This document shows, one piece after another, positions 9,748 to 28,697 of a DNA stretch of 32,169 bases. This stretch comes from a virus, in the IMG/VR virus record IMGVR_UViG_3300045988_177309, positions 1 to 32,169 of that record; one strand, given 5' to 3'. Both the position numbers and the translations under genes were made by a program. The notes beneath the pieces were generated by a model. The model was not told the origin of the DNA. It saw only the letters and a program-made list of their open reading frames with translations, and ran no database searches. How positions within the stretch are numbered: position 1 is the stretch's first letter; every line of letters starts with the position of its first letter.

Positions 9748-10008
9748 TTAACCCTCCAACATTGTTATGGTTTCATCGCCGCTGGTAATTTCTGCGCATT
9801 GATAATTACCATTATCTATATCACAGCTAAGAACGTAGCCATAATTTTTTCTAATGTAATCCTTGACGCGCTCATAATCTTCTTCGGTTGCAATTCCGCT
9901 CTTATCCCAATTTTCTTTACAGTTGTCCAGCATCAGCGGCGCAATAACTGCATAAGGAACTTCAACATCCACATTCTCAATCTTACAAATCTGCAAAGTA
10001 ACTTTCAT
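9748..10008 (-). CDS. hypothetical acidic protein (86 aa)
   Basis: ORF track. RBS AAAGGAGATTAAAAAAATG. TAA stop. Confidence 0.55.
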   Translation of the reverse strand: MKVTLQICKIENVDVEVPYAVIAPLMLDNCKENWDKSGIATEEDYERVKDYIRKNYGYVLSCDIDNGNYQCAEITSGDETITMLEG

Positions 10009-10069
10009 TTTTTTAATCTCCTTTTTCTCTTATCTTTTGGAGAACCCCCTTGTCCTCCTGACATTATGT

Positions 10070-10098
10070 AGTATACACCATTTCGTTTATAAAGTCAA
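10070..10098 (-). promoter_or_regulatory. sigma70-type promoter TTGACT-17-TATACT (minus strand)
   Basis: Plus-strand agtata 10070-75 and agtcaa 10093-98 with a 17-bp spacer. Drives the 9748..10008 operon. Confidence 0.55.
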
Positions 10099-10214
10099 TA
10101 CTTTTAGGAAAAAAATGTTTGTCTAAATTTTCACAATTTTTCGTTAAAAAATTACCAGAGATTCTATATTGACAAAATTCTCGCCGGTCTCATCTGAGAG
10201 CGGCGAGTTGAATG

Positions 10215-10310
10215 TCAAGAGGTAATTTTTGTAACAATTTTGTAACAATTATAAAACTTTGCGATAAATTCTCATGATTTTTTTAATAAAATAAGAATTA
10301 TTATCAAGGT
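10215..10310. promoter_or_regulatory. operator-like direct repeats of TTGTAACAATT (tandem pair at 10222-10250, third copy at 10293-10305)
   Basis: Read from the sequence. Lies between the 10070 promoter and the terminator at 10363. Confidence 0.45.
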
Positions 10311-10362
10311 TTTCAACTCAAATTATTACAAATTCGTAACAATTTATGTAATAAATTAAAAA

Positions 10363-10395
10363 ATAAAAGCCCCTTGCGGGCTTTTGTTTTTATTT
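10363..10395. terminator. bidirectional intrinsic terminator (aaaagcccc-ttgc-ggggctttt)
   Basis: Hairpin with an A-run 5' and a T-run 3'. Lies directly after the minus gene ending at 10390. Confidence 0.65.
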
Positions 10396-10773
10396 TCGCG
10401 GACAACTCAAAGTTATTTTATATTTTACATTATCCAACAGGAAAGAAAATTCTCTTTCCACGTTTGTAATTTCCAGCTTTTCCGCGCCTTTATTCTCAAG
10501 CATTTGCGCCAATGCCGCAATTATTTCTTGCTTTGCCGCATTAGCTCTTCTTTCTCTCTGTTGGAATTTATAGCTTGTTTTTGTGCGCGTAATTGTCATT
10601 TCCTTGGCAATTTTTTTTTGTTCTGCGCTCAATTCGCCCAGCTTTTCCCCTGCGTCTATACGCCTATCATAGTCTAACACCTCTTTTGCCTCTGCCTCTG
10701 AAATTTGCAACGTTTTCATTATCTGCTGGATTTGTGGGGAGCTTGCGTTCCCCACGTTTTTGCGTTGATTCAT
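10390..10773 (-). CDS. hypothetical basic protein (127 aa); paralog of 7853..8245
   Basis: ORF track. Conserved motifs as listed for 7853..8245. Confidence 0.6.
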   Translation of the reverse strand: MNQRKNVGNASSPQIQQIMKTLQISEAEAKEVLDYDRRIDAGEKLGELSAEQKKIAKEMTITRTKTSYKFQQRERRANAAKQEIIAALAQMLENKGAEKLEITNVEREFSFLLDNVKYKITLSCPRK

Positions 10774-10775
10774 GC

Positions 10776-11141
10776 TTACTGCTCAATCGGCTTGTGCTCA
10801 ACTCCTGCGGCGAAAAAGTACGCCTTGCGCTTGACTTCTTCGCGCTCAATCGTTCCGGCGTCCTTGGCCTTCTTGATAAGCTGATTCAATCGGGAATGGC
10901 TCAAATCTGCTATGTCCAGCATCTTGAGAATTTCTGTTACTGTGCGGCCTTCGCCATCACTCAAAATCTCAATGACACGGGCGATTATTTTGTCACCTTC
11001 TTCCTGCTTTGCCGTGGGCTTGCGCGTTGCGTTCTTGCGGTTCAGCAGGTCAAGCTCATGTTCCAGCCCGGCTACAAAGTCGGGGCGCGCCTGAATGGTA
11101 GGCAGATTCAGCAGAGCGGTGAACAGTTCCTTTTTGGTCAT
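10776..11141 (-). CDS. winged-helix-like DNA-binding protein (121 aa); paralog of 8288..8662
   Basis: ORF track. The 29 nt spanning its start/5'UTR (11137-11167) are identical to 8659-8687. Confidence 0.6.
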   Translation of the reverse strand: MTKKELFTALLNLPTIQARPDFVAGLEHELDLLNRKNATRKPTAKQEEGDKIIARVIEILSDGEGRTVTEILKMLDIADLSHSRLNQLIKKAKDAGTIEREEVKRKAYFFAAGVEHKPIEQ

Positions 11142-11264
11142 AGTATCAACTCACTTTCTGGTTTTTTTGACTGTCCTTGTCATTTTTTATCTGAAGGGCA
11201 TTTCCTGCCCTTCAGCTTACGACTTATTATAACATGGGGGGCGTGGTTTTGTCAATAGGTTTTT

Positions 11265-11966
11265 TTAACTATTGAACAACTTTTTTTGCATTTTTTTGTG
11301 CTGACGCATACAATGAACAAAAATGCGCGTTTCTATCTCGACATCTTCAAGCCCTGTATGACTTTCAACAAAGTCATTATTGCCGCTAATATATTTGTAC
11401 AGCACTTCTGCCGAACATTGCGGCTGATTGTTTTTAGTCAAGTAGCCATTTTCTTGACAAAAACGCTTATAAGTTTTTTGCTTTGCAATGGTACTGCGTG
11501 CCATGCGAACGGTATCATGCCATTCTATACCCTTGGGCAGAAAATAGCGGTATTTGCTTTTTGTTATATATCTTTGCGTAGCATTAAGCGCGTCATAATC
11601 AAATTTTGCATTGTGCGCCATTACTACGGTTATACCATACTCTGCAATAACATCGACAATAGCCTTGCGAATTTCGTAAAGGCTTGCGATCATGCGTTTA
11701 CCTTCAAGAATTTGCGCATCATACATGCCCATTTTATCGGCGTAATAGGCACTCTGCATAAGATTGCGCTCCGCGTAGTAAATGTCGCGGTTGATAAAGC
11801 TAAAACGTTCATACACGTTGCCGGATTTGTCTACAACTTGCGCGCCCAAGTCATAAAAAAGCGCGTTTTTGCTTACCAGTTTATTATTCTCATCTCGATA
11901 GGTGTTAGCCGTTTCAGTATCTAATACAAGATAATAGCGGCGGCGTTGGTCGATTTTCTTTTCCAT
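11265..11966 (-). CDS. DEDDh-family 3'-5' exonuclease (DnaQ/epsilon-like)
   Basis: Exo I YLVLDTETAN, Exo II VVMAHNAKFDYDALN, Exo III ESHTGLEDVEIETRIF. Probable start is ATG 11966 (MEKKIDQ...) with GGAAGGA RBS. Track ORF extends to 12005. Confidence 0.8.
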   Translation of the reverse strand: MEKKIDQRRRYYLVLDTETANTYRDENNKLVSKNALFYDLGAQVVDKSGNVYERFSFINRDIYYAERNLMQSAYYADKMGMYDAQILEGKRMIASLYEIRKAIVDVIAEYGITVVMAHNAKFDYDALNATQRYITKSKYRYFLPKGIEWHDTVRMARSTIAKQKTYKRFCQENGYLTKNNQPQCSAEVLYKYISGNNDFVESHTGLEDVEIETRIFVHCMRQHKKMQKKLFNS

Positions 11967-12074
11967 CTCTTTTTTCCTTCCTGCGGGAACATTGCGCCCC
12001 CGCAAGTATTATGTTATCACAAGTTGCTTTATTTGTCAACAACTTTTTGCAAAATGGGAAAGAATTTCCATTAT

Positions 12075-14438: not shown

Positions 14439-15039
14439 TGAATAATATAACTGTATCAACCTCTTTATATAATAATAGCACAGCTTAATAAGTCTCTAAG
14501 CTGTGCTACAGTAACAGTGCAGTATCTACCAAGGAGAGTGTTGCCGTGGCGGCATTGAGCATGTACACAACGTTATATTATTAATGCTCAGTATGTCGAG
14601 CTAAAAGGCTGTTCGCGCAACCTTATTCGCTTGAAGAAAGGAAGTGGAAAATGAATAATCATTAAAAAAATAATTTTCATTTTTTATTTTGTCTGTTGGA
14701 GTAAAACCAAGAGAGAAAGATATTGGAAGAAAAAGCTCTCTTAATTTATATTAGACAGAGCAGACTATATTAAGCAGTATGTTGCTGCATTACTTAATGT
14801 TAGAACCGCAGAAGAGAGAGTAGCTTTGTTATTGCGGCAAGCACAATACTTATAATACGCTCTACTTGTTTTAACAAAAGTCTTCCCCTTATGCTCCTTC
14901 TACATCAACGTTTATATTAGTTATTATGATTGAATGTTAATTAAATAAAGTTAAGTTATTTAATTGTATGCAAGTCTATAGACAAGCTTTGTATGTATTG
15001 TGACACTTGCTACGTCGTGTCACACCAGAAAGGAGGTTA

Positions 15040-15340
15040 AGAAAAAAAAACAAAATAATTTTTCTTTTTACATTATAACGAAGCAATAAAAAACGTTATA
15101 AAATTAATATTAATATTTAATTTATATTTATTATATTTAATTTAATACATTAAAAAGAAATAAATTACTAAAAGAAAATCAAATATTAATTTAAGAAAAG
15201 AATTTAGTTTATACAAAAAAAGAATACATTAAATAATATTTCCTTAATAGATTAATTATATTATACAGTATTTTTTTAATTTTGTCAAATTTTTTATATT
15301 TCTTTTATTCTTATTTGCTGTTGGTGAGTTTGCTGGCAAG
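15040..15340. other. roughly 300-bp extremely AT-rich tract (candidate DNA-unwinding/origin or packaging element)
   Basis: More than 85% A+T by eye, no ORF, sits between structured GC-richer segments. Confidence 0.4.
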
Positions 15341-15651
15341 TGCCGCAAGCACAAGAGTTTCAGGATGTGATTTGAGTTAAATAAGCCGCGGCGGAAGAAA
15401 AGATTTTTCTCTGTTGGCCTATTTTGATTGAAATCAAGGCCGTTAACGATGACTAGGATTATTCTAAGTGGGGGCTGGGGTTGGAGGGTCGCGCGTTCCT
15501 CAGATAAAAAGTCCGTAAGGTTCATGAATGTTTATCTGGTAAAAACTAAAAGAACAAAAGGGGGGTAGTATTTCGGGAAAAAATTTTTTTTGATTTAATA
15601 AAAACGTTTTGCCTGGACAATCTTCTGTCCCCAAGTATTTTTATTTTCAAA

Positions 15652-15798
15652 TTACGATGATTCTTTTTTCTTCTTGGGTCGACCTCTCTTTGGTTTTTCT
15701 CCCCACATAAATTCATATACTCCACTGGTTGCCGCCATAGTGGCCTTTCTCTTCATGTTTGCAGCATAGCTGCCCAAAATTCCACGAGGTTTTCTCAT
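15652..15798 (-). CDS. small basic protein with AT-hook-like motif (KRGRPKKKK), 48 aa
   Basis: ORF MRKPRGILGSYAANMKRKATMAATSGVYEFMWGEKPKRGRPKKKKESS. Upstream hairpin ttgttgaaaag-taaaa-cttttcaacaa. No obvious SD. Confidence 0.3.
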   Translation of the reverse strand: MRKPRGILGSYAANMKRKATMAATSGVYEFMWGEKPKRGRPKKKKESS

Positions 15799-15905
15799 AA
15801 AAAATATTGTTGAAAAGTTTTACTTTTCAACAAATCTCCTTTCTTATTTTTTATATATAAATTATATACTATTTTTAAAATTTTATCAATTTTTACAATT
15901 TTTAC

Positions 15906-15934
15906 TTGACATTGCGCTTTTTTCATGCTATAAT
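15906..15934 (+). promoter_or_regulatory. perfect consensus promoter TTGACA-17-TATAAT heading the recoded structural operon
   Basis: TTGACA 15906-11, TATAAT 15929-34. Leader has two hairpins, then RBS AAAGGAGG. Confidence 0.75.
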
Positions 15935-16000
15935 AAAGTAAGACTTAGAGTAAAGTCTAAAATTTCGGAGCGAGGCTCCGAAAGGAGGTTCTAAAAAACT

Positions 16001-17075
16001 TTTGATAAAATTAGATTATTCTTTAGAAACTCCAGAAGAAAGAGTACAATTAGTAGAGCAAATTTTGGCTGAATAGCCTAATCCTCCTCAAAAATACATA
16101 GAAATTTTAACTGATTATCTAGTTATGTGCATGGAGCGTCAAGAACGCCGTGAGCGCAAAATATTAACTGAGAATCGTTTGGCGACAGTTAATAAACGTG
16201 AAACCTCTTTTGAAGGTCTTGTATCACAACTAGAAAGTGGCGAAGATGGAATCTATAATCTCATTCATGAAAATAAGAACCAAATATTTAAACCAAAAGT
16301 AAGAATAACAAAAAAAGACATTGAAGAAATACCCGAACTCCAACAAATAAGAGATTCCATTGAATTTTGGGAAAAAAAGGCAAAAACCGCACAAGGTCGC
16401 GAAGCATTTATTATACGAAAAACAATTATTGAATTGCGCAAAGATCAATACCTTGTGAAAGACTCTTTCCGATAGCCCATTCAAGCAAGTTCAACCGCGC
16501 ATTCACGTGGTATCTATAAACTTACTTATGATGATAAAACTTGCAATTTTGATGAAGAAGGATATCCAATTCCTTCTGGTCTCTCTCTTTTGGATCCAAA
16601 CATTTGTTCGACAATCTTATGTTTATATTCTAAATTAAAACAAGATGGTTATAGTGAATTCATTGGTGATTTATACTATCTTATGGAAGATTTTGATAAA
16701 ATTTCTATTATTGCGCTTGCGCCTTATCCTATTTATCAAAAATTAGTATTATATAAAATAGATGGCCGACAAAACGCTGAAATACAAAATTTATTACAAA
16801 CAGAATTTGGTATTACTCATAGTCTTGAATACCTTTCGAGTCTTTGGCGTAATAAAATTCCTAAATTAATAGCCAGTGCCGCAGAAGATCAATATCTTGA
16901 ATGGTATTACCTTAATGCTGAAAAAGGCAAATATAAAAGATGTAGCTGCTGTGGACAAATTAAATTAGCTCATAATAAATATTTTTCTAAAAATAAAACT
17001 AGCAAAGATGGTTATTACAGCATTTGTAAAAAATGTCGCAATGCTAAAAGTAAAAAAAGAAAAAGGAAGAAATAA
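16001..17075 (+). CDS. hypothetical protein with C-terminal Zn-ribbon (CSCCGQ...CKKC) and basic tail; 1 in-frame TAG
   Basis: Track ORFs 16125..16475 and 16590..17075 share a frame through the TAG at 16473. The frame stays open upstream to a TTG at about 16001, 11 nt after AAAGGAGG. The start is uncertain and may be 16125. Confidence 0.5.
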
Positions 17076-17078
17076 TTT

Positions 17079-18266
17079 ATGAGCGAGTTACATTATTGTA
17101 AAAAATGTAATCGAACCATGAATGGGGAACAATTTTATTCTTCTAACAATTTAGAAAAATACCCTGATAATGGTAAATTTGATATTTGCAAGAAATGTAT
17201 GACTATGCATGTAGATAATTGGGATCCAAACACTTACCTTTGGATCCTAGAAGAAGCTGACGTGCCTTATGTTCCCGATGAATGGAATAAATTGATGGCA
17301 AAGTATGCCAATAATCCAGAAAAATTAACTGGTATGACTATTCTAGGGCGTTATCTCTCTAAAATGAAACTTAAACAATTTAGAGATTATCGATGGAAAG
17401 ATACCGCTTTCTTGCAAGAATTGACACAAAGTAAAATTGAGCAAACAATGAAACGCTCCGGTTATGATGCTTAGCAAATTGCCGAAGCTATTAATAAGGT
17501 TACTTTTACTTTTGATGAACATTATGAATAGCCTCCAATTCCTGCTTCGAATGAATGTAGTGAATCTGAAGATTATTTTGACCAATAGAATGATATTTCT
17601 ATTCCAGAAGAAACGTTTGATTTAACCGACGAAGAAAAATTAATGTTGCGTCTTAAATGGGGAAAAACTTATAAACCAGAAGAATGGATTAAACTTGAAC
17701 AATTATATAATGAATTTCTTTAGTCTTATGATATTCAAAGCGCAGGACATATTGATACTCTTAAATTGATATGCAAAACCTCTCTTAAAGCCAATTAGTT
17801 AATCGATATTGGAGATGTAGAAGGTTTTCAAAAAATGAGCCGGGTGTATGATAATTTAATGAAGAGCGGTAAGTTTACTGCTGCTCAAAACAAAGCCGAA
17901 TCTGGGGAATATGTAAATTCAATTTCTGAACTTGTTACTTTATGTGAATAGCAAGGTTTTATTCCTCGTTATTATGTATCTACACCGCAAGATAAAGTTG
18001 ATGAAACTTTATAGGATACTAAAAATTATGTGCGGACTTTAGTTACCGAAGAAATGAACTTAGGTAATTTAATTGAATCTTCAATACGCACAATGAATTA
18101 TGAAGAAAATAAAGAAGAAGATGAAGATATCGAAGATGAAATAATGGAAGATGTAGTTCCTGAAATTACTGATGAAGACTTCATGGAGCAAGAGGAATTT
18201 CTTGAGTCTGAACAAGAGAAAGATGCGCGATTGACTGAAGAATTGGCCTTGGGCAAAAATAATTAA
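17079..18266 (+). CDS. hypothetical protein (N-terminal CxxC...CxxC, acidic C-terminus); 7 in-frame TAGs
   Basis: Track ORFs 17079..17474 and 18030..18266 share a frame. The frame stays open through TAGs at about 17473, 17528, 17585, 17720, 17798, 17949 and 18010, with no TAA or TGA. TAA at 18264-66. Confidence 0.6.
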
Positions 18267-18937
18267 TGGCATTACAAGAACTTTTAAATTTATAGTCTCG
18301 ATACAATAAATTAGGGCTTTCTGAAGAGCGCGTAACTGCAATTCTTCCAGTAGTGCGTGAATATGTAGCATTCTGGCGTGAATACCCAGATATGTTTATT
18401 GATTTCCTTTTGGAAGCGGGGAACCCTTAGAATTTTCATCTTTATTTTTATCAACGAGTATTTTTACGTGCGGCAATGCGGCATAAATATGTGTATGCAG
18501 TTTACCCGCGCGCCTATTCAAAATCGTTTCTTGCAATTATGATTTTAATGATACGTTGCATTCTCTATCCCAAGTGTAAACTTTTCGTTACTTCGGGTGG
18601 TAAAGAATAGGCGGCTGGTATCATAAAGGAAAAAGTACAAGAAATATGTAATCTTATTCCAGCAATGGATAAAGAAATAGATTATCGACCTGGTCAAACT
18701 AGATTTATTAAAGACCAAACTACAATAGTATTTAAAAATGGCTCTTATTTTGATAATATTGCAGCGCGTGAAACCTCTCGTGGTAAACGTCGTCATGGTG
18801 GAGTCATAGAAGAATGTGTTGGAGTCGATGGCGATATACTGTCCCAAGTTATTATTCCCACAATGAACATTTCACGTATGTGTATGGATGGAACAACATA
18901 GCCTGAAGAAACGCTCAATAAGTCCCAAATTTATGTT
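18266..18937 (+). CDS. terL: terminase large subunit, exon 1 (ATPase domain)
   Basis: ATG overlaps the upstream TAA (TAATG). ...AVYPRAYSKSFLAIM... (deviant Walker A) ...ETLNKSQIYV coupling motif. In-frame TAGs. The frame then degenerates and hits TAA at 19007, so the exon must end near 18937. Confidence 0.65.
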
Positions 18938-19530
18938 AATTTTTTGGTCATTTTACGTTACTTAAATGTATTAATTTTAAAGAGAAAAAAGCCCATTCTA
19001 CCATTATAAAATCTAAAAGAAAGCTTACGCAAGAACAAGTTTTTATGATTTATGTAAATAATGAATAGAATATTATTCCAAAAACATATCTTTGTAATAT
19101 GTTTAATATCACTAGTAATACAATTTATACTATTTTAAATCAAAAATCTTATCAAGATTATTGGCAAGATTATCAAAAATTAACGAATGATCAAAAAGAA
19201 CAATTAGCATCATTGTTGCGAAAGCAACAACAGCAAACCCCTTGAATTGCTGGGAAGCCCTAAAAAATAGGGTAATCAGCAGCCAAGCCTTGAATAAAGG
19301 AAGGTTCAACGACTATCTCAATATGAGAGTAGAGGCAAGCGTCTCGAAGTGGGGGGCCCTTAGCAGGTAAAGCTGAAGGTGAAGATATAGTCTTTTCTAT
19401 ATAGTAATATATAGCAGTTCATAAGAGAACGTATTTAATTTAGCGAATTAAATAGAAAAATAAAGAACAACTGCGGGATACAAAAACACATATGCTTATG
19501 ATAAACTTATTTAGTTGTTAGTTTGGTAGA
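18938..19530 (+). mobile_element. group I (IA-like) self-splicing intron interrupting terL; boundaries approximate
   Basis: P GAATTGCTGGGAAGC 19245-59. P5 hairpin ccct-aaaaaat-aggg. Q AATCAGCAGCC 19274-84. P6 ccttgaataaaagg. R GTTCAACGACTA 19304-15. P8 tctca-ata-tgaga. S AAGATATAGTC 19382-92 (GACUA:UAGUC P7). P9 ctatata-gtaa-tatatag. All in canonical order. Confidence 0.7.
19045..19245 (+). CDS. intron-internal ORF, HTH-like (possible degenerate homing-endonuclease DNA-binding module); contains 1 in-frame TAG
   Basis: Frame differs from both exons. MIYVNNE(Q)NIIPKTYLCNMFNITSNTIYTILNQKSY... resembles a NUMOD/HTH motif. TGA stop at 19243-45. Confidence 0.25.
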
Positions 19531-20525
19531 TCGTAAGACCAGAACGTTCAATTATTCTCGGAGGTACTTACCGCATCCCAGTTCTTATGAAGCTTCTGGA
19601 TAAAAGCTTTGTTCAAGACTTGCGTATGGATGGTACCTTTAATGAAAGTGCATTTTAGCGAGAATATGAGTCGAAATGGTCTGGCACAGTAGAGGATGCA
19701 TTCTTTAATCCAGAAGTTTTTGAACGTAATCGCATTCTTAATCAGCCAGAATATGAACTTTCTGGACGTGCATCAAAACAATCTTATTATGTGCTTTCTG
19801 TGGATGTTGGTCGCAAACAATGCGACACTGTTGTTTGCGTTTTTAATGTCATTCCATAGTAGCAAGGTACATCAATAAAAAAATTGGTTAACATATTTGT
19901 ATTAACTGATGAACATTTTGAAGATCAAGCAATAAGATTAAAGCAATTATATTATAAATTTAAAGCACGTCGTATTGTAATTGATGCGAATGGATTAGGT
20001 ATTGGACTTGTAGATTATATGATAAAAACTCAAGTTAACCCTGAAACAAATGAAACTTATTATGATTTTGGTGTTTATAATGATGAAGATAATTATTACA
20101 AAAAATATAGAACCATTTTCACAGAACAAGATGCAATGTATTTAATTAAAGCTAATGCGCCATTAAATACTGATGCTCATGCGAATGCACAATCTTAGCT
20201 ATCTTCTGGAAAAGTAAAATTTTTAATTGATGTTCAAACAGCCAAAGCGAAATTGCTTAATACAAAAGTTGGCCAAAATATGAGTCCTGAACAAAGGACA
20301 GATTATTTAAAACCATTTAATTACACTTCCATATTAAAAGAAGAAATGTTGAATCTTCGTGAAGAAAATGAAGGTATTAATATTAATTTAAAACAAATAA
20401 ATCGCGGAATACGAAAAGACAAATTTTCTGCGTTTGAATATGGGTTATATTATATTAAACATGAAGAAGATGACAAGAAAAAACGTAAAAGATTTAATGC
20501 AAAAGATTGGGCTTTTTTTAATTAA
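19530..20525 (+). CDS. terL: terminase large subunit, exon 2 (linker + RNaseH-like nuclease domain)
   Basis: ...FQREYESKWSGTVEDAFFNP... then ...YYVLSVDVGRKQCDTVVCVFN... and IVIDANGLGIGLVDYM. In-frame TAGs at about 19656, 19857-62 (double) and 20196. Track ORFs 19884.. and 20253..20525 share the frame. TAA at 20523-25. Confidence 0.7.
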
Positions 20526-20634
20526 AGGAGAAATAAAATATGAAAAGTTTTGCAGTAATAGCCAATAAAGCTATTAGAAGTTTTGATACGACTATATTAA
20601 ATTATACTGATATTGCTATGAGGTATTATCAACA

Positions 20635-20994
20635 GTGCGAGCTTCACGAGCGGAAATTAAAATTGAAGAAATCCTGCGTGACGCAGGTTTAAATTTTAAA
20701 ATGGAGTATATTTTTCCTGATTTAAAAAGTCCCAATGGACGTCCTTTGCGTTTTGATTTTGTTGTTTTTGATGATGATGGACGTATTGATTTTATTATTG
20801 AATATTAGGGTAAACAACATTACCAACCAAGTAGTAAATTTGGTGGTAAACGAGGTTTTTATCAACAACAATATAATGATAATCAAAAGCGTCGATTTTG
20901 CGCTTTGCATGATTTTAATTTAATAGAGATTCCGTATAATGAAGAAAATCTCATTTCTTATGATTATATTATGAATAAGGCCTACGGCTGGTGA
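20635..20994 (+). CDS. small endonuclease-like protein (restriction-endonuclease-fold/Vsr-like motif ...RFDFVVFDDDGRIDFIIEY-Q-GKQHY...LIEIPY); 1 in-frame TAG
   Basis: Frame opens after the TGA at 20608-10. Candidate starts are GTG 20635 or ATG 20701. TAG sits inside the conserved E-Y-x-G-x-Q-H block. TGA stop overlaps the portal RBS GAAGGAGGTG. Confidence 0.5.
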
Positions 20995-21008
20995 AGGAGG
21001 TGCGTAAT

Positions 21009-22616
21009 TTGGATAAATCCCGAACCTAGCAAATTCATGATAAAGGTTTTGCAATGGTTGATGGATACGCCTATTATCGCACAGACGCACCTAATGAATA
21101 TAAGAAAATTCGTATTGGAGTAAAATCTGTTGAAGACGCTGTGCTTCAACTAGGTTCTTATTGCCCTAATCCAAAAGATAAAGGTAATCATGGTCCTGCC
21201 ATTAATAAAGGCATGATTATTAAAGCTTTAATGGAACATGATGTTAAAGAATAGCGGAGAATTTCTAATCTTTTTTATGAAATAAATGGTATTTATCAAA
21301 AAGTATGTAATTATTTTGCTTATCTTTATCGTTATGATTGGTATGTAGATCCAAAAGTTTATGAAGATGCCAATGTTGAGAAAGTCTTAAAAAACTTTGC
21401 TAGTGTATTAGATTTTCTTGATAAATCTTATATTAAAAAAGTGTGTGGCGATATAGCTTTAGAAGTAGTTAAAAGTGGCGCCTATTATGGATATATTGTT
21501 AATATAAACAAAAGCTTAGTATTACAATAGCTGCCGACTGATTACTGCCGCTCCCGTTATAATGTTGGTTCAACTCCTGCAATAGAATTTGATATGAGAT
21601 ATTTTGATACGTTTAGAGATACTAATTATCGTATGCGTATCTTAAAGTTATTTCCTGATGAATTCTCAAAAGGATATTTACTTTATAAATAGGGTAAATT
21701 ACAACCTGACTTTGCTGGAGATAATTAGGGAAGTTGGTATTTACTTGAACCAGAAAATACTATAAAATTTAATTTATTGCATCATGATTTACCAATGTTT
21801 GTGAATGCAATTCCTGCGATTCTTGATTTGGATGCCGCCCAAGACTTAGACCGCAAGAAACAAATGCAGCAATTATTAAAAATTGTTGTACAAAAATTGC
21901 CACGAGACAAAAATGGTGATTTAATATTTGATGTTGAAGAAGCTAGAGATATACACAACAATGCAGTAGAAATGTTGCGTCGTGCTGTTGGAGTTGATGT
22001 TTTAACAACATTTACAGATGTTGATTCTATTGATATGTCTGATAAAAATACTTCAACCACTAAAGATGATTTAGAAAAAGTTGAACGCACTGTTTATAAT
22101 GCATTAGGTATTTCGCGCAATTTGTTTAATACGGATGGCAATTTATCTTTGGAAAAATCAATTCTTAATGATGAATCTTCTATGCGTAAATTATTGCTTC
22201 AATTTGAACAATTCTTTGATCGTATTATAAGTCAAAAATATAAAAATAGTAAATGTATTTTTAATTTTTGTATGTTAGAAACGACTCAATATAATTATAA
22301 AGAATTAGCAAAATTATATAAAGAACAATCTTAGATTGGTTTCTCAAAGATGTTACCTTAGATTGCTCTTGGACATTCTTAGAGTTTCATTTTGAATTCT
22401 GCCCACTTTGAGAATGATATATTAAAGTTATATGAAATTATGATTCCTCCGCTTATGAGTTCTACTATGAGTAGTGATTTAATTTTGGGTAACAAAGAGC
22501 AAAGTAATTAGACAAAAAATCAAACAAATTAGGATAGTAAAGAAATTGGTCGTCCAGAAAAATCTGATGACCAAAAGAGCGAAAAAACTATCTAGAATAA
22601 AGAATCTATGAGTTAA
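21009..22616 (+). CDS. portal protein (putative, about 535 aa); at least 10 in-frame TAGs
   Basis: Track ORFs 21054..21254 and 21777..22334 share a frame that stays open from TTG 21009 (5 nt after GGAGGTG) to TAA 22614-16. Synteny: terL, nuclease, this gene, scaffold. Size is typical of portals. Confidence 0.55.
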
Positions 22617-22628
22617 GGAGGAATATTA

Positions 22629-24167
22629 ATGCATAAGAGTATAGGCATTGAACAGTCCATCGAATTCATTAACGTGACTCCGCTCAATCCTTTAATTTCT
22701 AAATGTCAAATAAAAGTTTGTTATGTTCAAGATGAACCTAACCGCAATAAGAGTATAATTACTAAAGATGTTGCGCGAAAGCTCGCTAATTCATTGCCGG
22801 GTAGTCCCATTGTTGGTTATTATAATGAGGCCAGTGGTGATTTTGAAGAACATAATAAAATTATAGAAATTTCTAATGGTCAATTAACTTTTAAAGAAAA
22901 TACAAGGCCTTATGGCTTTGTTGATTTAGGTGCTAAAGTTTGGTTTTAGAAATTCCTTGATGATGATGTAATAGAACGTGAATATTTAGTAACAGAAGGA
23001 TATTTATGGACTGGCCAGTATCCTGAATGTCAACGTATTATTGATATCGGCAATAACCATTCAATGGAACTTGACAATACAATTTTAAAAGGACACTGGA
23101 CAAAAGATGATAAAGGAAAACCACAGTTTTTTATTATCAATGAAGCAATAATTTAGAATCTTTGTATTTTAGGCGAAGATGTAGAACCTTGCTTTGAAGG
23201 GGCTAGTATTACAGCTCCTATTCAATTCTCATTCGAGGATGGGTTTAAAGAGTAGCTCTTCTCAATGATGAATGAGTTAAAGAATATTTTGAATGAAGGA
23301 GGAGCGAAAGTATTGAATACTTATGCCGTTGATATTGGCGATAGTCTTTGGTCAGCCGTATGGGATTATGTTCATAAGACTTATAAAGATCCTGCTGATG
23401 AATGGTCTGCTTTGTATAACATCGATAGCATTTGCGAAGAAAATGGCCAAAAATTTGCAGTTCTGAGAAGTGCTGATGCCAAATACTATCGTTTAAATTT
23501 CTCTCTTTCTGAAACAGAGGGCTTCCAAGCTTCTGGCGCTTTAATTGAAGTAACTAAAAATTATACTCCTATTAATCAGTTTGCAGAAGCCGATGTTGCA
23601 GCTTATATGGAAGAATATAAGAAAAAGAATACTAAAGAGCCTTCTGAGGATGAAGAGAAGCCCATTGAGGATGAGAAAAAGTCAGAAGAAGAAGATAATT
23701 CTGATAATGAATCTCAATCTGATGATGAGGAAGATAAGAAGAAGAAGAAAACTTCTTATTCTATAGAAGAGTATAATACTGTTGTTGAACAGTTAAATAC
23801 TTTACAAGCTCAGTATAATGCCTTGCAGGAAACTAATAATGAGTTAACTGCGCAAGTTGAGTCTTTGACTCAGTTTAAGGTTGCGGCCGAGCGCAAGGAT
23901 AAACAGGCTATGATAAATAGCTTTTATATGCTGTCCGATGATGATAAGAAAGATGTTGTTGATCATATTGATTCTTATTCTTTGGATGATATTGAAGCAA
24001 AACTTTCTATAATATGTTTCCGTAATAAGGTAAGTTTTGACCTTGATGAGGAAAAGAAAACAGATGAGAATGGGCCTATTACTTATAATTTAGACCATGA
24101 TGAAGTTGATAATACTCCTGCTTGGTTAAAGGCTGCATTTGCTGTTGCAAAATCTAGAGAAGAATAA
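22629..24167 (+). CDS. scaffolding-like protein (globular N-domain, acidic E/D/K low-complexity linker, coiled-coil C-terminus); 3 in-frame TAGs
   Basis: Track ORFs 22629..22949 and 23265..24167 share a frame through TAGs at about 22947, 23154 and 23253. RBS GGAGGAATATTAATG. Confidence 0.5.
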
Positions 24168-24188
24168 TAGTTTTAAGGAGGATAAACA

Positions 24189-24953
24189 ATGCTGGGTGAG
24201 TTTTTAAAGAAACACATTACTAGCCAGGCAGATTCCGCCAAGGGCGGCTATGTCGATTATGGTTATGGCCAAGTAGAACCTAACCATCTTTCAGCTTAGA
24301 GGACTGGACAGATGTATGGTCAGCTGCCTGCTAATAAAGATATTAAGATTTTAGAAAATGGTCAGTTTGTAAAATATGATTATGCTGCCGCCAATGGCGG
24401 TGAGGTAAATTTCGTTGGTAAGGGCGAATGGATGCTTGTTTATAATGAGATTAAGCTTTATCGTGAACATCAGGTTGACGCTGAGTTCGCTATGCTGAAA
24501 GATAATTATGAAGCTCGTGTTTATAGTCCTTATGATTGGGAAAAGCCTGAAGAGGATAAGCAGACTCGTTACTATAATGGTGTAGATAATAACGGCGATT
24601 CTAGCATCGAGCTTGGTGGTAAGACTTATAATTATGATGATGTAACTGCTGGCCCTGATTATTATGAAATTCATTATAATGAAGATCCCTTCCACATTCT
24701 TGGTAAGCATTATGAGCGCAAGATGCCCGAAGGTACTAAGATGGTTCCTCGCGTATTTAAGACTAATGTGGGTGATATCTTTACCACTAACATGATTGCC
24801 GAAACTACTCTTGCTCTTGGCGATGAGCTTTCTCCTCGTGCAACTGATGGTATTCTCAGCAAGTCTGGCGATGGCTCTATGAAATGGCAAGTAGTGCGTC
24901 TGTATACTATGCCCGATGGCCAAAAGGGCGTTAAATTAATGCGCATAGCGTAA
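24189..24953 (+). CDS. hypothetical head-associated protein (254 aa); 1 in-frame TAG
   Basis: ATG 24189 after AGGAGGATAAACA. Same frame as track ORF 24312..24953 through the TAG at about 24297. Confidence 0.5.
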
Positions 24954-24970
24954 GAAAGGAGAAAAATATA

Positions 24971-26080
24971 ATGGCTTTAGATCGTAATAATCTTGTTGCA
25001 TTAATGAAGACTGTAGCTAAGGCTAAGCCTGCTTCTCCTATTGCTTATAGCTGGGATGGCAAGAATTTAGACTATGATACACTTAATGAAACACTCCGTA
25101 TGGAGATGAATGAACTTGCAGGTTCTTATTCTCTCTATCGTGAAAATAAAAATCTGATTTTCTCCATTATTGAAGAGACTCTTGATGATGTTCTCCCCAA
25201 GAAGGTTGAAGAGCAGTATAATCAGTTCGCTGAAGTTAAGACTTTTAAGCAGGGTGATAAGCCCATTTTCCGCAGGAAGCTCAATACTCGTCAGCGTGCT
25301 AAGCAGTTTGTAACTCGTGTTGGCCATGCTAGCATGTATGAAGTTTTTAAACTTGGTGCGGCTGAAGAGGCTTTTGAAGTGCGTACTAGCGCGATTGGCG
25401 GCGCTGCTCAGATTGGTTTTGAAGAGTTCCTTGATGGTCGTGTTGATTTCGCTGAAGTTACTGCTATCATTATGGAAGGTATGGATGAACTCATTTATAA
25501 GGAGATTGGTGCTGCTCTGAAGGCTTCTATCAATCAGCTTCCTCCTGCAAACCGTGTTGCGGCCGCTGGTTTTGATGAAGCTTCTTTTGATCGCCTTCTG
25601 ACTGTTGCTTCTGCTTATGGCGAACCTACTATCTATTGTACTTATGAATTTGCTGTCAATATGATTCCTCAGGAGGCTTGGCGTTATACTGAGTCTATGA
25701 AGGATGAACTTTGGCGCACCGGTCGTCTGGCTAGCTATAAGGGCAAGAAGGTCATTATTCTTGAACAGGGTTTTGAGGATGGTACCAATGAAAAGAAGGT
25801 TATTGATCCTGGTTATGCTTGGATTATTCCTACTGGTGCTGATGGTAAACCTGTGAAGGTTGCTTTTGAAGGCAATACTATTGTTGATGAGTATAATAAC
25901 TATGACCGCTCTCGTGAAATTCAGGTTTATAAGAAGGTTGGCGTAGTATGCATGATGGCCAATAATATTTGCGCTTATGTTGATACTGCCCTTCTGGGTC
26001 AAATGGATACATGGCATCTTGATGGTGCTTCCAATGTTGCTTGGCAGTCTAATGTTGTTATTGGTAACGACAATCCGTAA
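24971..26080 (+). CDS. major capsid protein (putative; 369 aa), no in-frame TAG
   Basis: Intact track ORF with RBS AAAGGAGAAAAATATAATG. Position after the scaffold-like gene. GC3-rich, highly biased codon usage. Confidence 0.5.
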   Translation: MALDRNNLVALMKTVAKAKPASPIAYSWDGKNLDYDTLNETLRMEMNELAGSYSLYRENKNLIFSIIEETLDDVLPKKVEEQYNQFAEVKTFKQGDKPIFRRKLNTRQRAKQFVTRVGHASMYEVFKLGAAEEAFEVRTSAIGGAAQIGFEEFLDGRVDFAEVTAIIMEGMDELIYKEIGAALKASINQLPPANRVAAAGFDEASFDRLLTVASAYGEPTIYCTYEFAVNMIPQEAWRYTESMKDELWRTGRLASYKGKKVIILEQGFEDGTNEKKVIDPGYAWIIPTGADGKPVKVAFEGNTIVDEYNNYDRSREIQVYKKVGVVCMMANNICAYVDTALLGQMDTWHLDGASNVAWQSNVVIGNDNP

Positions 26081-26162
26081 TTTTTAATATAAGGGGAGAA
26101 AAAAGGATACTTTCGTATCCCTTTTCTCCCATTTTTTGCTATGAGAAAAAGGAGATAATAAA

Positions 26163-26759
26163 ATGGTTGGTAATAAAAATTTTAATGTAAAAAATCGTAG
26201 TGCTAGTGTAGTAGTTTATAAAATTCCAGAAGAAAATATTCGTAGAGAATTTGCGCCCGGTGAAAGTAAGAAGATTTCTTATGCAGAATTAGAAAAGCTT
26301 ACTTATCAGCCTGGCGGTCGTGAATTAATGGCAAATTTTTTGCAAATTGATAGTGATGAAGCAATCAATAGCTTAAATATTTATGCGACTCCTGAATATT
26401 GGATGTCAGAAAAGAATATTATAGATTTGATTAAAACTGGCCCTCTTGATCAGTGGCTCGATGCCCTCGATTATGCTCCTGTTGGCGCAATGGATTTAAT
26501 TAAGAAATATTCTGTGTCTTTGCCTTTGACTGATACTCGTAAGATAGAGGCTTTGCAGAAAAAGACTGGCTTTAATGTTACTGCTGCTATTCAACATGAT
26601 AAAGAATCTAAGGAACCTGACGAAGTATTTACAAAGACTGAAAAGAAGGAAAATACTGAAACCGCTCATACAGCACCTACTGGACGTCGTACTACTGTTG
26701 ATTATAAGAAGAGCAACGAAGAAGCTCCTACTACTCCAGTTTATAAAGTAGTAAAGTAA
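26163..26759 (+). CDS. hypothetical structural protein (198 aa), no in-frame TAG
   Basis: Intact track ORF. RBS AAAAGGAGATAATAAAATG. Confidence 0.5.
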   Translation: MVGNKNFNVKNRSASVVVYKIPEENIRREFAPGESKKISYAELEKLTYQPGGRELMANFLQIDSDEAINSLNIYATPEYWMSEKNIIDLIKTGPLDQWLDALDYAPVGAMDLIKKYSVSLPLTDTRKIEALQKKTGFNVTAAIQHDKESKEPDEVFTKTEKKENTETAHTAPTGRRTTVDYKKSNEEAPTTPVYKVVK

Positions 26760-26786
26760 TAAATAAATAGGAGGCGAGTTTACACT

Positions 26787-27374
26787 GTGGATGGAATAAC
26801 TGAATTTTCCAAAGTATATAATCGCTTTCTTGGTAAAATTACTGATGATATGTATATTGAATTGACTCCAGAAGATACATTAAAAGATTTGCAGAATCTT
26901 TTAATTGAATCATTGCCAGGGTTTGAGTTTCCTAGGCATGATATTTCTTCCTATGTCATAAAGACTGAAACAATTCCAGAAGATATGATAACTTCTGATG
27001 ATTTTGTTGTAGGTATTTTATGGGGTAAGATACCTTCTGGGCCAAATGATGTTCCTGATGTAATTATTGATAAATCTTATTTTTTAGAATCTTTAACAGA
27101 AGAAGAAATTAATATTATAGCCATTTTAATGATGTGCGCTTGGGTAAATAGATAGGTAGCATCTATTGAAAATACTAGAATGAAATATTCAGGTACGGAT
27201 TTTAAATTTACTTCCCAAGCTAATCATTTATCAAAGATGTTAGCGCTGTTATCAGAAACATAGCGCCAATCAATTCATATGCAAAGACTTTATGGTCGTC
27301 GCAAAAAAAATGCGCGAGGTGCTTATGAATCTAATTGGTCTATATTACGAGAAAAGAGCGCATTAGATAGATAA
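26787..27374 (+). CDS. head-tail adaptor/connector-like protein; 2 in-frame TAGs
   Basis: Track ORF 26787..27155 (GTG start after TAGGAGG) continues in frame through TAGs at about 27153 and 27261 to TAA 27372-74. Confidence 0.4.
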
Positions 27375-27676
27375 TGATGACTAAATATGGTTTTACTGTT
27401 GTCGAAGATGTTATTAATAAAGATTTATTACGTTTAACTAATTAGATTTGGAAATTAATTCCTATGCGCGAACATGAGGAAGATTGGTTAAAACAATTAA
27501 ATACGATAATTGTAGAAATCTCTGGCTTAAATGAAATATTTGCGCCAGAGCTTTCTTTTACTATCTTATTAAGTAAATTAGAAGGTTTAAAAATTGAAGA
27601 ACATTTAGATTTTTATACTTATCGAAAAACTGTTTTTGAAGCTATAAATTTATTATAGGAGTTAAAACATGCATAA
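27374..27676 (+). CDS. hypothetical small structural protein; 2 in-frame TAGs
   Basis: ATG overlaps the upstream TAA (TAATG). Same frame as track ORF 27464..27658. Confidence 0.45.
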
Positions 27677-28697
27677 TGCACAAGTAAATTCATTGATGCG
27701 CGGCCGCCTTGGCTTATATTCTCAATAGCCTGGACAAGATGCCGGTGTTGAAACTCGTGACCAATAGTTTATATAGCGCGGAGGATATCATCAGCAAGAA
27801 AGAATGATTAAAGACAAGCGCCGCAGTTTGGATAAAGCCACTCTTTATTCTTACTAGGCTGCTGATGTGCGGGATATTAACGCAAAAATATTAAATACAT
27901 ATCGTGCGTTAATTAATCCTAATAAATTAAAACAAGATTATGATGATAAGATTGTTTCTGTTGGATTTGAAGCCAGGTTTTAGCCAGGTACTGTTTTTGA
28001 ATGGGTTGGCACTCATACTTATTGGTTAATTTATTTACAAGATTTAACTGAGCTGGCGTATTTTCGTGGTGATATTCGTAAGTGTTCTTATGAAATTGCT
28101 TGGAAAGATGATGATGGTGAACATAAAACTCATGCGGCAATTCGTGGCCCAGTAGAGACAAAAATTAATTTTATTCAAAAGCATGGAATTAGTGTCGATG
28201 AGCCTAATTATTCTTTGAATATATTAATGCCTAAAAATGAAGAAACTTTGAAATATTTTACCAGATATTCTAAATTTTATTTGCATAATGATCCGGTGCA
28301 AGAAAATAAAATTTGTTGGCGAGTTGAAGCTGTAGATTGGATTAGTATGCCGGGCGTTTTAGAAATAAATGCAGTAGAATATTATAGTAACAAAGTTGAA
28401 GATGATATAGAAAATGGTATTGTGGGTGGGCTAGTAGTTGAAGAAAAAAATCCCAATACTGAAGAAGTAGAGGATGCTATTACTGGTGAAACATTTATTA
28501 AGCCTAAGAAGAGATATAGATATCAATTTACTGGTTCTATGATTTCTGATTGGAAAATAAAAACTGATTTGCCATTACAATGCTGGGAAATTGATGAGCA
28601 TTGTATTGAATTAATGTGGCTAAAACCTGTTAGTGGATAGTTTACATTAAGTTATGGTGATTTTGAGAAAGTAATAGTGGTTGAGTCCCTATTTTAA
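27669..28697 (+). CDS. hypothetical structural protein (about 342 aa); 6 in-frame TAGs
   Basis: ATG 27669. Frame shared with track ORF 28215..28640. Open to TAA 28695-97. Confidence 0.5.

What the first reader, a model, noticed from the sequence alone, without database searches (positions are those of the whole stretch)
18938..19530. Group I (IA-like) self-splicing intron splitting the terminase large subunit gene
The terL frame ends abruptly right after the conserved ...KSQIYV coupling motif and runs into a TAA. The nuclease half resumes about 600 nt downstream in another frame. Between them lie canonical group I core elements in the right order with the right pairings. These are P (AAUUGCUGGGAAG), P5 hairpin, Q (AAUCAGCAGCC), P6, R (GUUCAACGACUA), P8, S (AAGAUAUAGUC) and a P9 hairpin with a GUAA loop, and P7 is formed by GACUA:UAGUC. 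Introns in terL are rare but documented. Combined with TAG recoding in the same gene, this is unusual.
Basis: partly seen in the sequence, partly recalled or inferred. Interest (0 to 1): 0.8.

Follow-up and report, generated by a model that had tools for sequence, protein, structure and literature searches.

The report
Group I intron in phage terminase gene
The phage's DNA-packaging (terminase) gene is interrupted by a real, intact self-splicing group I intron that has just lost its own mobility gene; this is a well-documented kind of phage element and here an ordinary, clear example.

Summary
The finding is right in substance. Rfam Intron_gpI hits window 19192-19414 at 92.7 bits (cut-off 50). 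The boundaries need correcting: the intron is 18937-19465 (529 nt), not 18938-19530. Removing it joins ...NKSQIY-V-TTAGYKNTYAYDKL..., which aligns without gaps to intronless TerL homologs and, at nucleotide level, to two intronless relatives of 95-97% protein identity. The host is an SPbeta/YonF-type, Phass-1-like siphophage that reads TAG as Gln (code 15).

A 14-sequence alignment of same-site introns supports the full fold (P1-P9.2, with P7.1/P7.2, IA-like): 92% of cells pair, against 37-46% when partners are slid, and 55 of 82 pairs show compensatory changes. The guide sequence (19202-19210) lies 265 nt downstream of the 5' splice site.

The P1 loop holds the remnant of a GIY-YIG homing endonuclease gene. 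A 98-99.7% identical metagenomic phage carries the same intron at 1086 nt with the intact gene. The window copy is identical apart from a 557-nt deletion between 11-nt direct repeats. At least 27 other IMG/VR phage contigs carry full-length relatives at the same codon.

This is a new member of a known kind. Introns in terL, and introns in recoded phages, are already documented. Splicing itself was not tested.

The parts
18266..18936 (+). terL exon 1 (223 codons plus 2 nt; 4 in-frame TAG = Gln). Ends ...CAA ATT TAT GT.
   Evidence: PHROG 15503/24618 and terminase PHROGs. tblastn to SPbeta/YonF-type TerL of Enterococcus H1/EF1, Geobacillus E3 and Phass-1. Translation.
18937..19465 (+). Group I intron, 529 nt. 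Starts UAAUUUU and ends ...AAAUAAAG, with the terminal G at 19465.
   Evidence: Gapless protein alignment and DNA alignment of the spliced junction to intronless alleles. Same boundaries in 14 other same-site introns. Identical to the L281 intron apart from the deletion.
18933..18941 (+). P1 5' strand: exon AUGU | intron UAAUU. The splice-site U is at 18936.
   Evidence: Pairs with 19202-19210. U.G is present in 14/14 sequences, and positions -2, -3, -4 and +1 covary with the guide sequence (helix 1).
18968..18978 (+). Deletion scar: the single retained copy of the 11-nt direct repeat GTATTAATTTT. 557 nt of the endonuclease gene are missing here.
   Evidence: Comparison with the 1086-nt intron of L281: the breakpoint is ambiguous over exactly these 11 nt, with 0 mismatches elsewhere.
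18970..19245 (+). Remnant of the GIY-YIG homing endonuclease gene: last 91 codons plus TGA (helix-turn-helix DNA-binding part; one in-frame TAG). It has no ribosome-binding site or start codon, and its stop overlaps P3.
   Evidence: Identical to codons 174-264 of the L281 ORF. 34-58% identical to the C-termini of the full-length same-site endonucleases. Only weak HTH hits in Pfam/PHROGs.
19202..19210 (+). Internal guide sequence AAUUAGCAU (P1 3' strand).
   Evidence: Rfam's automatic placement of P1 at 19196-19217 is not the real P1.
19213..19230 (+). P2 hairpin UUGUUGC-GAAA-GCAACAA.
   Evidence: 6 of 7 pairs covary across the family (helix 2). Recovered by MFE folding.
19238..19414 (+). Catalytic core: P3 (19238-43/19351-56), P4, P5, P6, P6a, P7 (19311-15/19388-92), P7.1, P7.2, P8, P9.
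   Evidence: Rfam RF00028 at 92.7 bits, covariation counts, coordinates.
19417..19465 (+). Peripheral 3' domain: P9.1 (19417-19430), P9.2 (19432-19454, loop UAGCG), then the tail ending in the terminal G at 19465.
   Evidence: All 9 pairs of P9.2 and 3 of 4 pairs of P9.1 show compensatory changes (helices 16 and 17).
19466..20525 (+). terL exon 2. Starts A ACA ACT GCG GGA (completing Val224, then TTAG) and includes the nuclease domain. 6 in-frame TAG; stop TAA.

Best explanation
Window 18937-19465 is an intact group I intron (subgroup IA-like, with P7.1/P7.2 and P9.1/P9.2). It interrupts codon Val224 of an SPbeta/YonF-type terminase large-subunit gene, directly upstream of the TTAG segment. 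The phage reads TAG as glutamine.

Inferred mechanism, following the standard group I pathway:
1. The terL pre-mRNA folds so that the exon end AUGU plus the intron start UAAUU pairs with the guide sequence AAUUAGCAU, 265 nt downstream. This forms P1 with a U.G wobble at the splice site.
2. An external guanosine bound in P7 attacks after U18936.
3. The freed exon then attacks after the terminal G19465. This joins GU to A and restores ...SQIY-V-TTAGY....

The 260-nt P1 loop is the wreck of the intron's own GIY-YIG homing endonuclease gene. A sibling phage, 98-99.7% identical, still has the complete 264-codon gene. In the window, a 557-nt deletion between two 11-nt direct repeats removed the ribosome-binding site, the start codon and the catalytic domain. 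The window copy can therefore still splice but cannot mobilise itself, which corresponds to the endonuclease-decay stage of the homing cycle.

Shown here: the ribozyme's identity, boundaries and fold, the same-site family, the intron presence/absence polymorphism, and the deletion. Inferred, not shown: actual splicing, actual homing, and loss of endonuclease function.
For: - **Ribozyme identity.** Rfam Intron_gpI scores 92.7 bits, with the full-length model matched.
- **Boundaries.** The spliced TerL aligns without gaps to MT836163, Enterococcus H1, Geobacillus E3 and Phass-1. The spliced DNA aligns without gaps to the intronless L006 (97% aa) and L067 (95% aa).
- **Same-site family.** 27 IMG/VR loci with full-length relatives of the endonuclease all sit in terL, with exon 2 resuming at residue 225. 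A splice-site U and a terminal G are present in every copy extracted.
- **Fold.** In the 14-sequence alignment, 92.0% of cells pair against 37-46% when partners are slid. 55 of 82 pairs have changes on both sides, and 0 of 500 shuffles reach the observed values on four of the five measures (2 of 500 on the fifth). P1 has U.G in 14/14 with four covarying neighbours.
- **Ribozyme not decayed.** The window has only two private changes at otherwise invariant columns, and they compensate each other in P2. MFE folding recovers most helices, z = -3.8.
- **Endonuclease.** The full-length ORFs hit PF01541 GIY-YIG at 36-46 bits against a cut-off of 22.6.
- **Deletion.** The L281 intron is 1086 nt. The window copy equals it minus nt 32-588, with 0 of 529 mismatches, and the breakpoint lies within the 11-nt repeat GTATTAATTTT.
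- **Recoding.** terL has 10 in-frame TAG and no in-frame TGA. Three of the four TAGs in the L281 endonuclease align with Gln that is conserved in most of the homologs.
Against: - No RNA data: splicing is inferred from sequence only.
- No convincing P10 pairing was seen between the exon 2 start (AACAAC) and the 5' part of the guide sequence. This was checked by eye on the alignment.
- The 260-nt P1 loop (about 820 nt in full-length copies) puts the guide sequence far from the splice site, which could slow folding.
- The co-conversion signal is weak. The cluster of synonymous differences at the junction against L006 (9 in +/-15 nt, top 1.2% of windows) is not matched against L067 (top 12%).
- The window structure pairs at 100% by construction, because the structure was derived from the window sequence.
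Confidence: 0.9

Rival explanations
1. The intron is a decaying, non-splicing relic, so terL is a pseudogene in a defective phage genome.
For: The endonuclease gene is already destroyed. No P10 was found. There is no RNA evidence.
Against: The ribozyme part is base-for-base identical to the copy in a 146.7-kb contig assembled at about 580x coverage. It has no uncompensated change at any column that is invariant in the other 13 sequences. Both terL exons are open apart from TAG codons, and TerL motifs are conserved.
Confidence: 0.04
2. The 557-nt deletion is an assembly or consensus artefact, and the real genome carries the full endonuclease gene as L281 does.
For: Only one sequence shows this junction. 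Exact searches found no second copy in IMG/VR or JGI metagenomes.
Against: The breakpoint is an 11-nt direct repeat, the classic signature of slippage or microhomology deletion, and is much shorter than assembler k-mers (inference). The window also differs from L281 by 27 substitutions within terL, so it is a separate genome rather than a mis-assembly of the same reads.
Confidence: 0.06
3. The 91-codon remnant is still expressed as a stand-alone DNA-binding protein, for example as a target-site binder, an immunity factor or a splicing helper.
For: The frame is open for 102 codons in 30% G+C sequence. It keeps the helix-turn-helix region.
Against: The openness is explained by age: there are zero substitutions relative to the intact parent, so the deletion is very recent. 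The original ribosome-binding site and ATG are deleted, and the deletion length is not a multiple of three. The first in-frame ATG (19045) is an internal Met that is frequent but not universal in the full-length proteins (about half of the copies), and no Shine-Dalgarno-like sequence precedes it.
Confidence: 0.04
4. The insert is a different kind of element: an intein, a group II intron, or a free-standing endonuclease gene that splits terL into two separately translated polypeptides.
For: Split terL genes and inteins occur in other phages (PMC7886860, PMC2677866).
Against: There is no in-frame continuity and there are multiple stops in the terL frame. No group II or other Rfam hit was found. 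The break falls inside a codon, immediately upstream of the conserved TTAG segment. The group I fold is supported by covariation.
Confidence: 0.01

Closest known systems
Phage T4 td intron with I-TevI (subgroup IA2 group I intron encoding a GIY-YIG homing endonuclease). Comparison from my own knowledge, not tested here.
   Same: A phage group I intron in an essential, conserved gene. It has an IA-type core with P7.1/P7.2 and P9.1/P9.2. It encodes a GIY-YIG endonuclease with a C-terminal helix-turn-helix DNA-binding part, and the 3' end of the ORF overlaps ribozyme structure.
   Different: The host gene is terL, not td. Here the ORF sits in the P1 loop, between the splice site and the guide sequence, rather than in the P6 loop as I recall for td. 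The ORF carries TAG = Gln codons. In the window the ORF is deleted. No sequence-level relationship to I-TevI was tested beyond the Pfam domain.
terL group I introns of Bastillevirinae Bacillus phages such as SIOphi (PMC11878797) and of Jug jumbo gut phages (PMC12880540)
   Same: Group I introns, sometimes two or three per gene, split terL. Splicing was shown experimentally or by metatranscriptomes in those systems.
   Different: Those are different phage lineages and TerL families. The endonucleases reported in Bastillevirinae terL are listed as HNH endonucleases with a VSR-endonuclease signature. The Jug introns are mostly about 206 nt and lack ORFs. Insertion sites were not compared.
Enterococcus phage EF1/EF5 terL (MF001358, MF001361). 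The GenBank annotation shows only 'hypothetical protein' pieces plus 'HNH homing endonuclease # Phage intron'.
   Same: Same TerL family (49% identity). EF1 intron 2 has a very similar core and shares the exact 18-nt P9.1 string GCAGTTCATAAGAGAACG.
   Different: EF1 intron 2 sits 13 nt further downstream, after the TSAG Gly codon, at a codon boundary rather than inside a codon. It is about 250 nt and has no ORF or P2-type hairpin. EF1 uses the standard code and has two further insertions, at residues ~198/199 (Rfam Intron_gpI) and ~290/291 (HNH gene, group I-like core by eye).
crAss-like phages with stop-codon recoding and group I introns (Yutin et al. 2021, PMC7886860)
   Same: Alternative genetic code and group I introns occur together, and the intron ORFs themselves contain reassigned stop codons.
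   Different: A different phage order. In the cited example the reassigned codon is TGA and the gene is PolB. In Delta-group crAss-like phages TerL typically carries inteins. The Phass-1 paper on the present clade (PMC10607447) does not mention introns.

Membership tests
Group I intron (Rfam RF00028) | Conserved catalytic core (P3-P8 with the P4/P6 and P3/P7/P8 domains) matching the family covariance model | tested here: met
   92.7 bits against a gathering score of 50, model positions 1-253 of 253.
Group I intron (Rfam RF00028) | P1 helix between the 5' exon end and an internal guide sequence, with a U.G wobble at the 5' splice site | tested here: met
   AUGU|UAAUU pairs with AAUUAGCAU (19202-19210). 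U.G is present in 14/14 sequences, and positions -2, -3, -4 and +1 all covary.
Group I intron (Rfam RF00028) | Terminal guanosine as the last intron nucleotide | tested here: met
   G19465. A G immediately precedes exon 2 in all 15 same-site introns.
Group I intron (Rfam RF00028) | Base-paired fold maintained by compensatory substitutions | tested here: met
   55 of 82 pairs have changes on both sides. 92% of cells pair against 37-46% in slid controls.
Group I intron (Rfam RF00028) | Precise excision restores the host reading frame | tested here: met
   In silico only: gapless alignment to intronless proteins and to intronless DNA.
Group I intron (Rfam RF00028) | P10 pairing of the 3' exon with the guide sequence | tested here: not met
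   Exon 2 starts AACAAC in most copies, and no complement lies 5' of the guide G (inspection). P10 is dispensable in many group I introns (my own knowledge), so this does not exclude membership.
Group I intron (Rfam RF00028) | Guanosine-dependent self-splicing | not testable with these tools
   Needs an in-vitro transcript with GTP/Mg2+, or RNA-seq.
Subgroup IA (IA2-like) | Extra helices P7.1 and P7.2 between P7 and P3', plus a P9.1/P9.2 extension | tested here: met
   P7.1 19316-19328, P7.2 19332-19345, P9.1 19417-19430, P9.2 19432-19454. All are supported by covariation. No subgroup-specific covariance model was run, so 'IA2' remains a resemblance.
GIY-YIG homing endonuclease (PF01541) | N-terminal GIY-YIG catalytic domain | tested here: not met
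   The window remnant (18970-19245) has no GIY-YIG hit. The domain is present in the parent-type ORF of L281 (37.6 bits) and in L226 and L205. The window therefore carries a pseudogene, not a member.
Mobile (homing) intron | Presence/absence polymorphism at one conserved site among related genomes, with the same intron and endonuclease in divergent hosts | tested here: met
   The intron is absent from L006 and L067 (95-97% aa TerL) and from 69 of 79 IMG/VR relatives. It is present at the same codon in 27 loci whose TerL is 47-76% identical to the window's.
Mobile (homing) intron | The endonuclease cleaves the intronless allele and the intron is copied in, with co-conversion of the flanks | tested here: inconclusive
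   A substitution cluster at the junction is seen against L006 (top 1.2% of windows) but not clearly against L067.

The most novel reading that the evidence does not exclude
The endonuclease of this intron family is itself written in the phage's alternative code. The L281 copy has 4 in-frame TAGs, three of them at Gln positions conserved in most homologs, and other copies have up to 8. Its translation, and hence homing, would then be gated by the phage's amber-suppression switch and confined to the late phase and to code-15 phages. The window's endonuclease-less copy, identical in sequence and flanks to the sibling's, could still spread by being mobilised in trans during co-infection.
Probability: 0.25. 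Interest if true: 0.45.

Novelty: new member of a known kind. Interest (0 to 1): 0.3.

Why it matters
**Annotation.** terL in this phage group will be miscalled as fragments for two independent reasons, TAG = Gln and introns. The exact exon coordinates, and the recognition that up to five sites in this TerL family carry insertions (Rfam-confirmed group I introns at four of them), allow correct TerL reconstruction for phylogeny. The Phass-1 description of the clade does not mention introns.

**Biology.** The window and its 98-99.7% identical sibling capture the step at which a homing endonuclease gene is lost by an 11-nt repeat-mediated deletion while the ribozyme stays untouched. This is a clean natural snapshot of the homing-cycle model.

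None of this changes current understanding of group I introns.

Tried and rejected
1. **Rfam's own P1/P2 placement** (19196-19217 as P1). Rejected: the true 5' strand of P1 is at the splice site, 265 nt upstream, as covariation shows.
2. **A local guide sequence** in the first 50 nt of the intron (AAAUGUAUUAAUUU). It has no consistent complementarity and sits partly on the deletion scar.
3. **P10.** None found.
4. **Co-conversion tract.** A synonymous-difference cluster is seen against L006 but is weak against L067. Against L281 the intron is identical, but flank divergence (0.4-3%) is too low for the zero mismatches to be significant.
5. **Exact search for the deletion junction.** 0 hits in IMG/VR and in JGI metagenomes. 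A second pattern covering P2 found L281 only.
6. **Pfam/PHROG on the remnant ORF alone.** Only sub-threshold HTH and invertase hits. Its identity came from same-site full-length genes instead.
7. **Pfam on spliced TerL.** No family found. PHROGs and tblastn were needed.
8. **Other introns in the window.** None at E <= 0.05.
9. **Suppressor tRNA in the window.** None: no tRNA genes were found.
10. **Literature search** for a description of this terL intron family in Enterococcus or SPbeta-like phages. Nothing specific was found.

Full report

Yes. A scan of the whole window against Rfam gives a single match above threshold. This is Intron_gpI (RF00028) at 19192-19414 on the + strand, at 92.7 bits against a gathering score of 50, E = 8e-23, covering model positions 1-253 of 253. 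A more permissive scan adds only a sub-threshold L20-leader hit elsewhere.

- UUGCUGGG / UCAGCAGCC (P4/P6 region)
- GUUCAACGACUA, with P7 5' GACUA at 19311-19315
- AAGAUAUAGUC, with P7 3' UAGUC at 19388-19392
- a P9 hairpin with a GUAA loop at 19397-19414

The last 270 nt fold at -72.1 kcal/mol, z = -3.8 against dinucleotide shuffles. The minimum-energy structure recovers P2, P3, P4, P5, P6, P6a, P7.1, P7.2, P9 and P9.2, and a P8 hairpin in a slightly shifted register, on its own.

**2. The host gene and the genetic code**

The gene starts at ATG 18266. Read with TAG as a sense codon and with the intron removed, it gives a 576-residue protein with 10 in-frame TAG, no in-frame TGA and a single terminal TAA.

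- Pfam finds nothing.
- PHROGs match the two halves strongly (phrog_15503 at 4.9e-63, phrog_24618 at 2.7e-47) and several 'terminase large subunit' families weakly.
- tblastn against GenBank phages finds 145 records. They are SPbeta/YonF-type TerL of large Firmicutes siphophages: Enterococcus H1, VRE9_4 and EF1 at about 49%, Geobacillus E3 at 49%, and a human-faecal contig, MT836163, at 58%.
- The hits also include Phass-1 (43%), which NCBI places in the 'Caudoviricetes code 15 clade'.

In the window, the minus-strand ORFs of the first 12 kb contain no TAG. The plus-strand structural genes contain up to 12 each. No tRNA gene lies in the window.

**3. Exact boundaries**

In the frame of the downstream half, 19467-19530 reads TTAGYKNTYAYDKLIQLLVWQIV, with two TAG = Gln codons.

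- Exon 1 ends at ...TAT GT (18936).
- The intron runs from 18937 to 19465 (529 nt). It starts UAAUUUU and ends AAAUAAAG.
- Exon 2 starts at 19466 with A ACA ACT GCG GGA.
- The join gives ...NKSQIY-V-TTAGYKNTYAYDKLIQLL....

This aligns without any gap to four uninterrupted homologs, for example NKSQIYITTAGWKNSFAYDKLIELL and HKQQIYVTTAGFKNTFAYQKMIQLL.

Among 79 IMG/VR loci that encode relatives, 69 are uninterrupted. These include L006 (97% protein identity) and L067 (95%). The spliced window DNA aligns base-for-base with both across the junction.

That frame runs on to TAA 19007-19009.

**4. A same-site family, and what fills the 5' half**

One IMG/VR relative, L084 (TerL 59% identical), has a roughly 1.09-kb insert at the same codon. 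It scores 92.5 bits against Rfam and carries a 265-codon ORF upstream of the core.

I used that ORF as a query. It returned 27 IMG/VR loci with full-length relatives (52-98% identity). Every one of them sits inside terL, with exon 2 resuming at window residue 225. These ORFs hit the GIY-YIG catalytic domain, PF01541, at 36-46 bits against a cut-off of 22.6.

The open frame in the window's intron matches only their C-terminal part, for example EKKAHSTIIKSKRKLTQEQVFM against EKKVQTTIIKSNRRMTKEQVFM.

**5. Structure**

From 14 distinct same-site introns I joined the splice-site region to the part running from the guide sequence to the 3' splice site. I aligned these (A1), wrote the structure on the window sequence and counted pairs.

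- 92.0% of 1110 cells are standard pairs, against 36.9-45.7% when the 3' partners are slid by 1-3 columns.
- 55 of 82 pairs show changes on both sides.
- The covariation score is 0.460, against 0.06-0.12 for slid partners and 0.18 for shuffles. None of 500 shuffles reaches it.
- P7 is invariant, as expected for the guanosine-binding helix, and so says nothing either way.
- P1, P2, P3, P5, P6, P6a, P7.1, P7.2, P8, P9, P9.1 and P9.2 all covary. P4 is mostly invariant, with one covarying pair.

P1 is the most informative helix. The splice-site U pairs with a G in 14 of 14 sequences. Exon positions -2 (G/A), -3 (U/C) and -4 (A/U), which are synonymous or conservative codon positions, and intron position +1 are each matched by the complementary change in the guide sequence.

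In the window the guide sequence is AAUUAGCAU (19202-19210), just 5' of the P2 hairpin at 19213-19230. The endonuclease gene therefore lies in the P1 loop. Rfam's automatic alignment had mis-assigned P1 to local sequence.

I did not run subgroup-specific models. I found no P10.

The window's ribozyme has only two private changes at columns invariant in the other 13 sequences. These two form a compensating C-G pair that closes P2. The ribozyme part therefore shows no decay.

**6. The deletion**

A pattern from the window's P2 region found one metagenome contig: ERZ1035037.2 NODE-2, 146,667 bp, coverage about 580 by its name (locus L281). It is 98.3-99.7% identical to window 14891-22198.

It has the same intron at the same site, but 1086 nt long. 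That copy carries an intact 264-codon GIY-YIG gene (PF01541, 37.6 bits). The gene starts at intron nt 72 after GAAGGGA and ends at the TGA that overlaps P3.

The window's 529 nt equal the L281 intron minus nt 32-588. There are zero mismatches. The breakpoint is ambiguous over exactly the 11 nt GTATTAATTTT, which occur as a direct repeat at both ends of the deleted 557 nt. One copy remains at window 18968-18978.

The deletion removes the ribosome-binding site, the ATG and 172 codons. Its length is not a multiple of three. The window copy is therefore a very recent endonuclease-less derivative.

The exons differ between the two genomes at 20 of 671 and 7 of 1060 positions, so these are separate genomes.

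Three of the four TAG codons in the L281 endonuclease fall at glutamines conserved in most homologs that use CAA or CAG there: SFLQKEF, GYNQNEGGN and PGQ(V/I)L. This directly supports TAG = Gln. It also shows that the mobile gene is itself recoded.

**7. Mechanism**

The best explanation is the standard group I pathway:
1. P1 forms between 18933-18941 and 19202-19210.
2. An exogenous guanosine attacks after U18936.
3. The exon attacks after G19465, and the exons are ligated.

This restores an essential gene, so the intron is phenotypically near-neutral.

Spread of the family to one codon in TerL proteins that are only 47-76% identical to the window's, together with absence from 95-97% identical relatives, fits endonuclease-driven homing. 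A cluster of synonymous differences around the junction against L006 may be a co-conversion trace: 9 in +/-15 nt against a mean of 1.9 per 30 nt, in the top 1.2% of windows. The signal is weak against L067, so I treat it as suggestive only.

Splicing, homing and endonuclease activity are all inferred, not shown.

**8. Comparison with what is known**

- Group I introns in phage terL are established. They are reported in 5 of 52 Bastillevirinae, with in-vitro and in-vivo splicing (PMC11878797), and in Jug jumbo phages, with metatranscriptome support (PMC12880540). Terminases are listed among typical targets in the Hausner/Edgell review, which also describes introns with degenerated endonucleases being mobilised in trans (PMC3984707).
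- Group I introns together with stop-codon recoding, including recoded intron ORFs, are described for crAss-like phages (PMC7886860).
- The Phass-1 paper on the code-15 siphophage clade does not mention introns (PMC10607447).
- Enterococcus phage EF1 (standard code, same TerL family) has three inserts in terL. Its second intron shares the core and an exact 18-nt P9.1 string with the window's intron but sits 13 nt further downstream.

**9. Verdict**

It is a new member of a known kind.

It is useful for annotating this phage clade and is a neat snapshot of endonuclease loss. It is not surprising to a specialist. Interest 0.3.

Noticed in passing
window 1-12000 (minus strand) versus 16000-32169 (plus strand): ORFs on the minus strand in the first 12 kb have no in-frame TAG. 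Most plus-strand structural and packaging ORFs have 1-12 each. This is the early/late split of recoding described for other recoded phages. No tRNA gene, and so no suppressor, lies in the window.
   Followed up: partly
L067 1399-2551 (corresponds to window 17816/17817, inside the 395-codon gene upstream of terL): The 95%-identical relative L067 has a 1153-nt insert absent from the window. It encodes an HNH_3 + NUMOD4 + NUMOD1 homing endonuclease with in-frame TAGs. No Rfam group I hit reaches the gathering score, so it is unresolved whether this is an intron or a free-standing insertion.
   Followed up: partly
L001 (EF1), L063, L069, L071-L075, L207-L230: This TerL family has at least five distinct insertion sites, at window residues ~84/85, 198/199, 224, 228/229 and 290/291. 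Single genes are split into up to five pieces. Several are Rfam Intron_gpI hits, and GenBank annotates the EF1 pieces as 'hypothetical protein'.
   Followed up: partly
This suggests a very widespread intron lineage. Which genes those copies interrupt was not examined.
   Followed up: no
window 20635-20994 (+): A small ORF (119 aa from GTG, one TAG) directly downstream of terL has a sub-threshold DUF2726 hit (20.8 bits against a cut-off of 24.7). It is present in L006 and L067 as well, so it is not an indel relative to them.
   Followed up: partly
window 31182-31287 (+): A weak L20_leader (RF00558) match at 31.3 bits against a gathering score of 58.7, E = 0.017. This is probably chance.
   Followed up: no
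Intron first ~25 nt in the window and L205-L230: The intron's 5' leader, UAAYUUUUUUGGNCAAAACGUUAYAA, is conserved across the same-site family well beyond the 5 nt that pair in P1. Its role is unknown; it could control endonuclease expression or be an extra RNA contact.
   Followed up: no
Exon 2 start; intron-containing versus intronless alleles: Intron-containing alleles start exon 2 with AAC in 14 of 15 cases. Intronless alleles mostly have T (TAC) at that wobble position and prefer ACT for the first Thr codon. This could reflect co-conversion, 3' splice-site preference or endonuclease target preference.
   Followed up: partly
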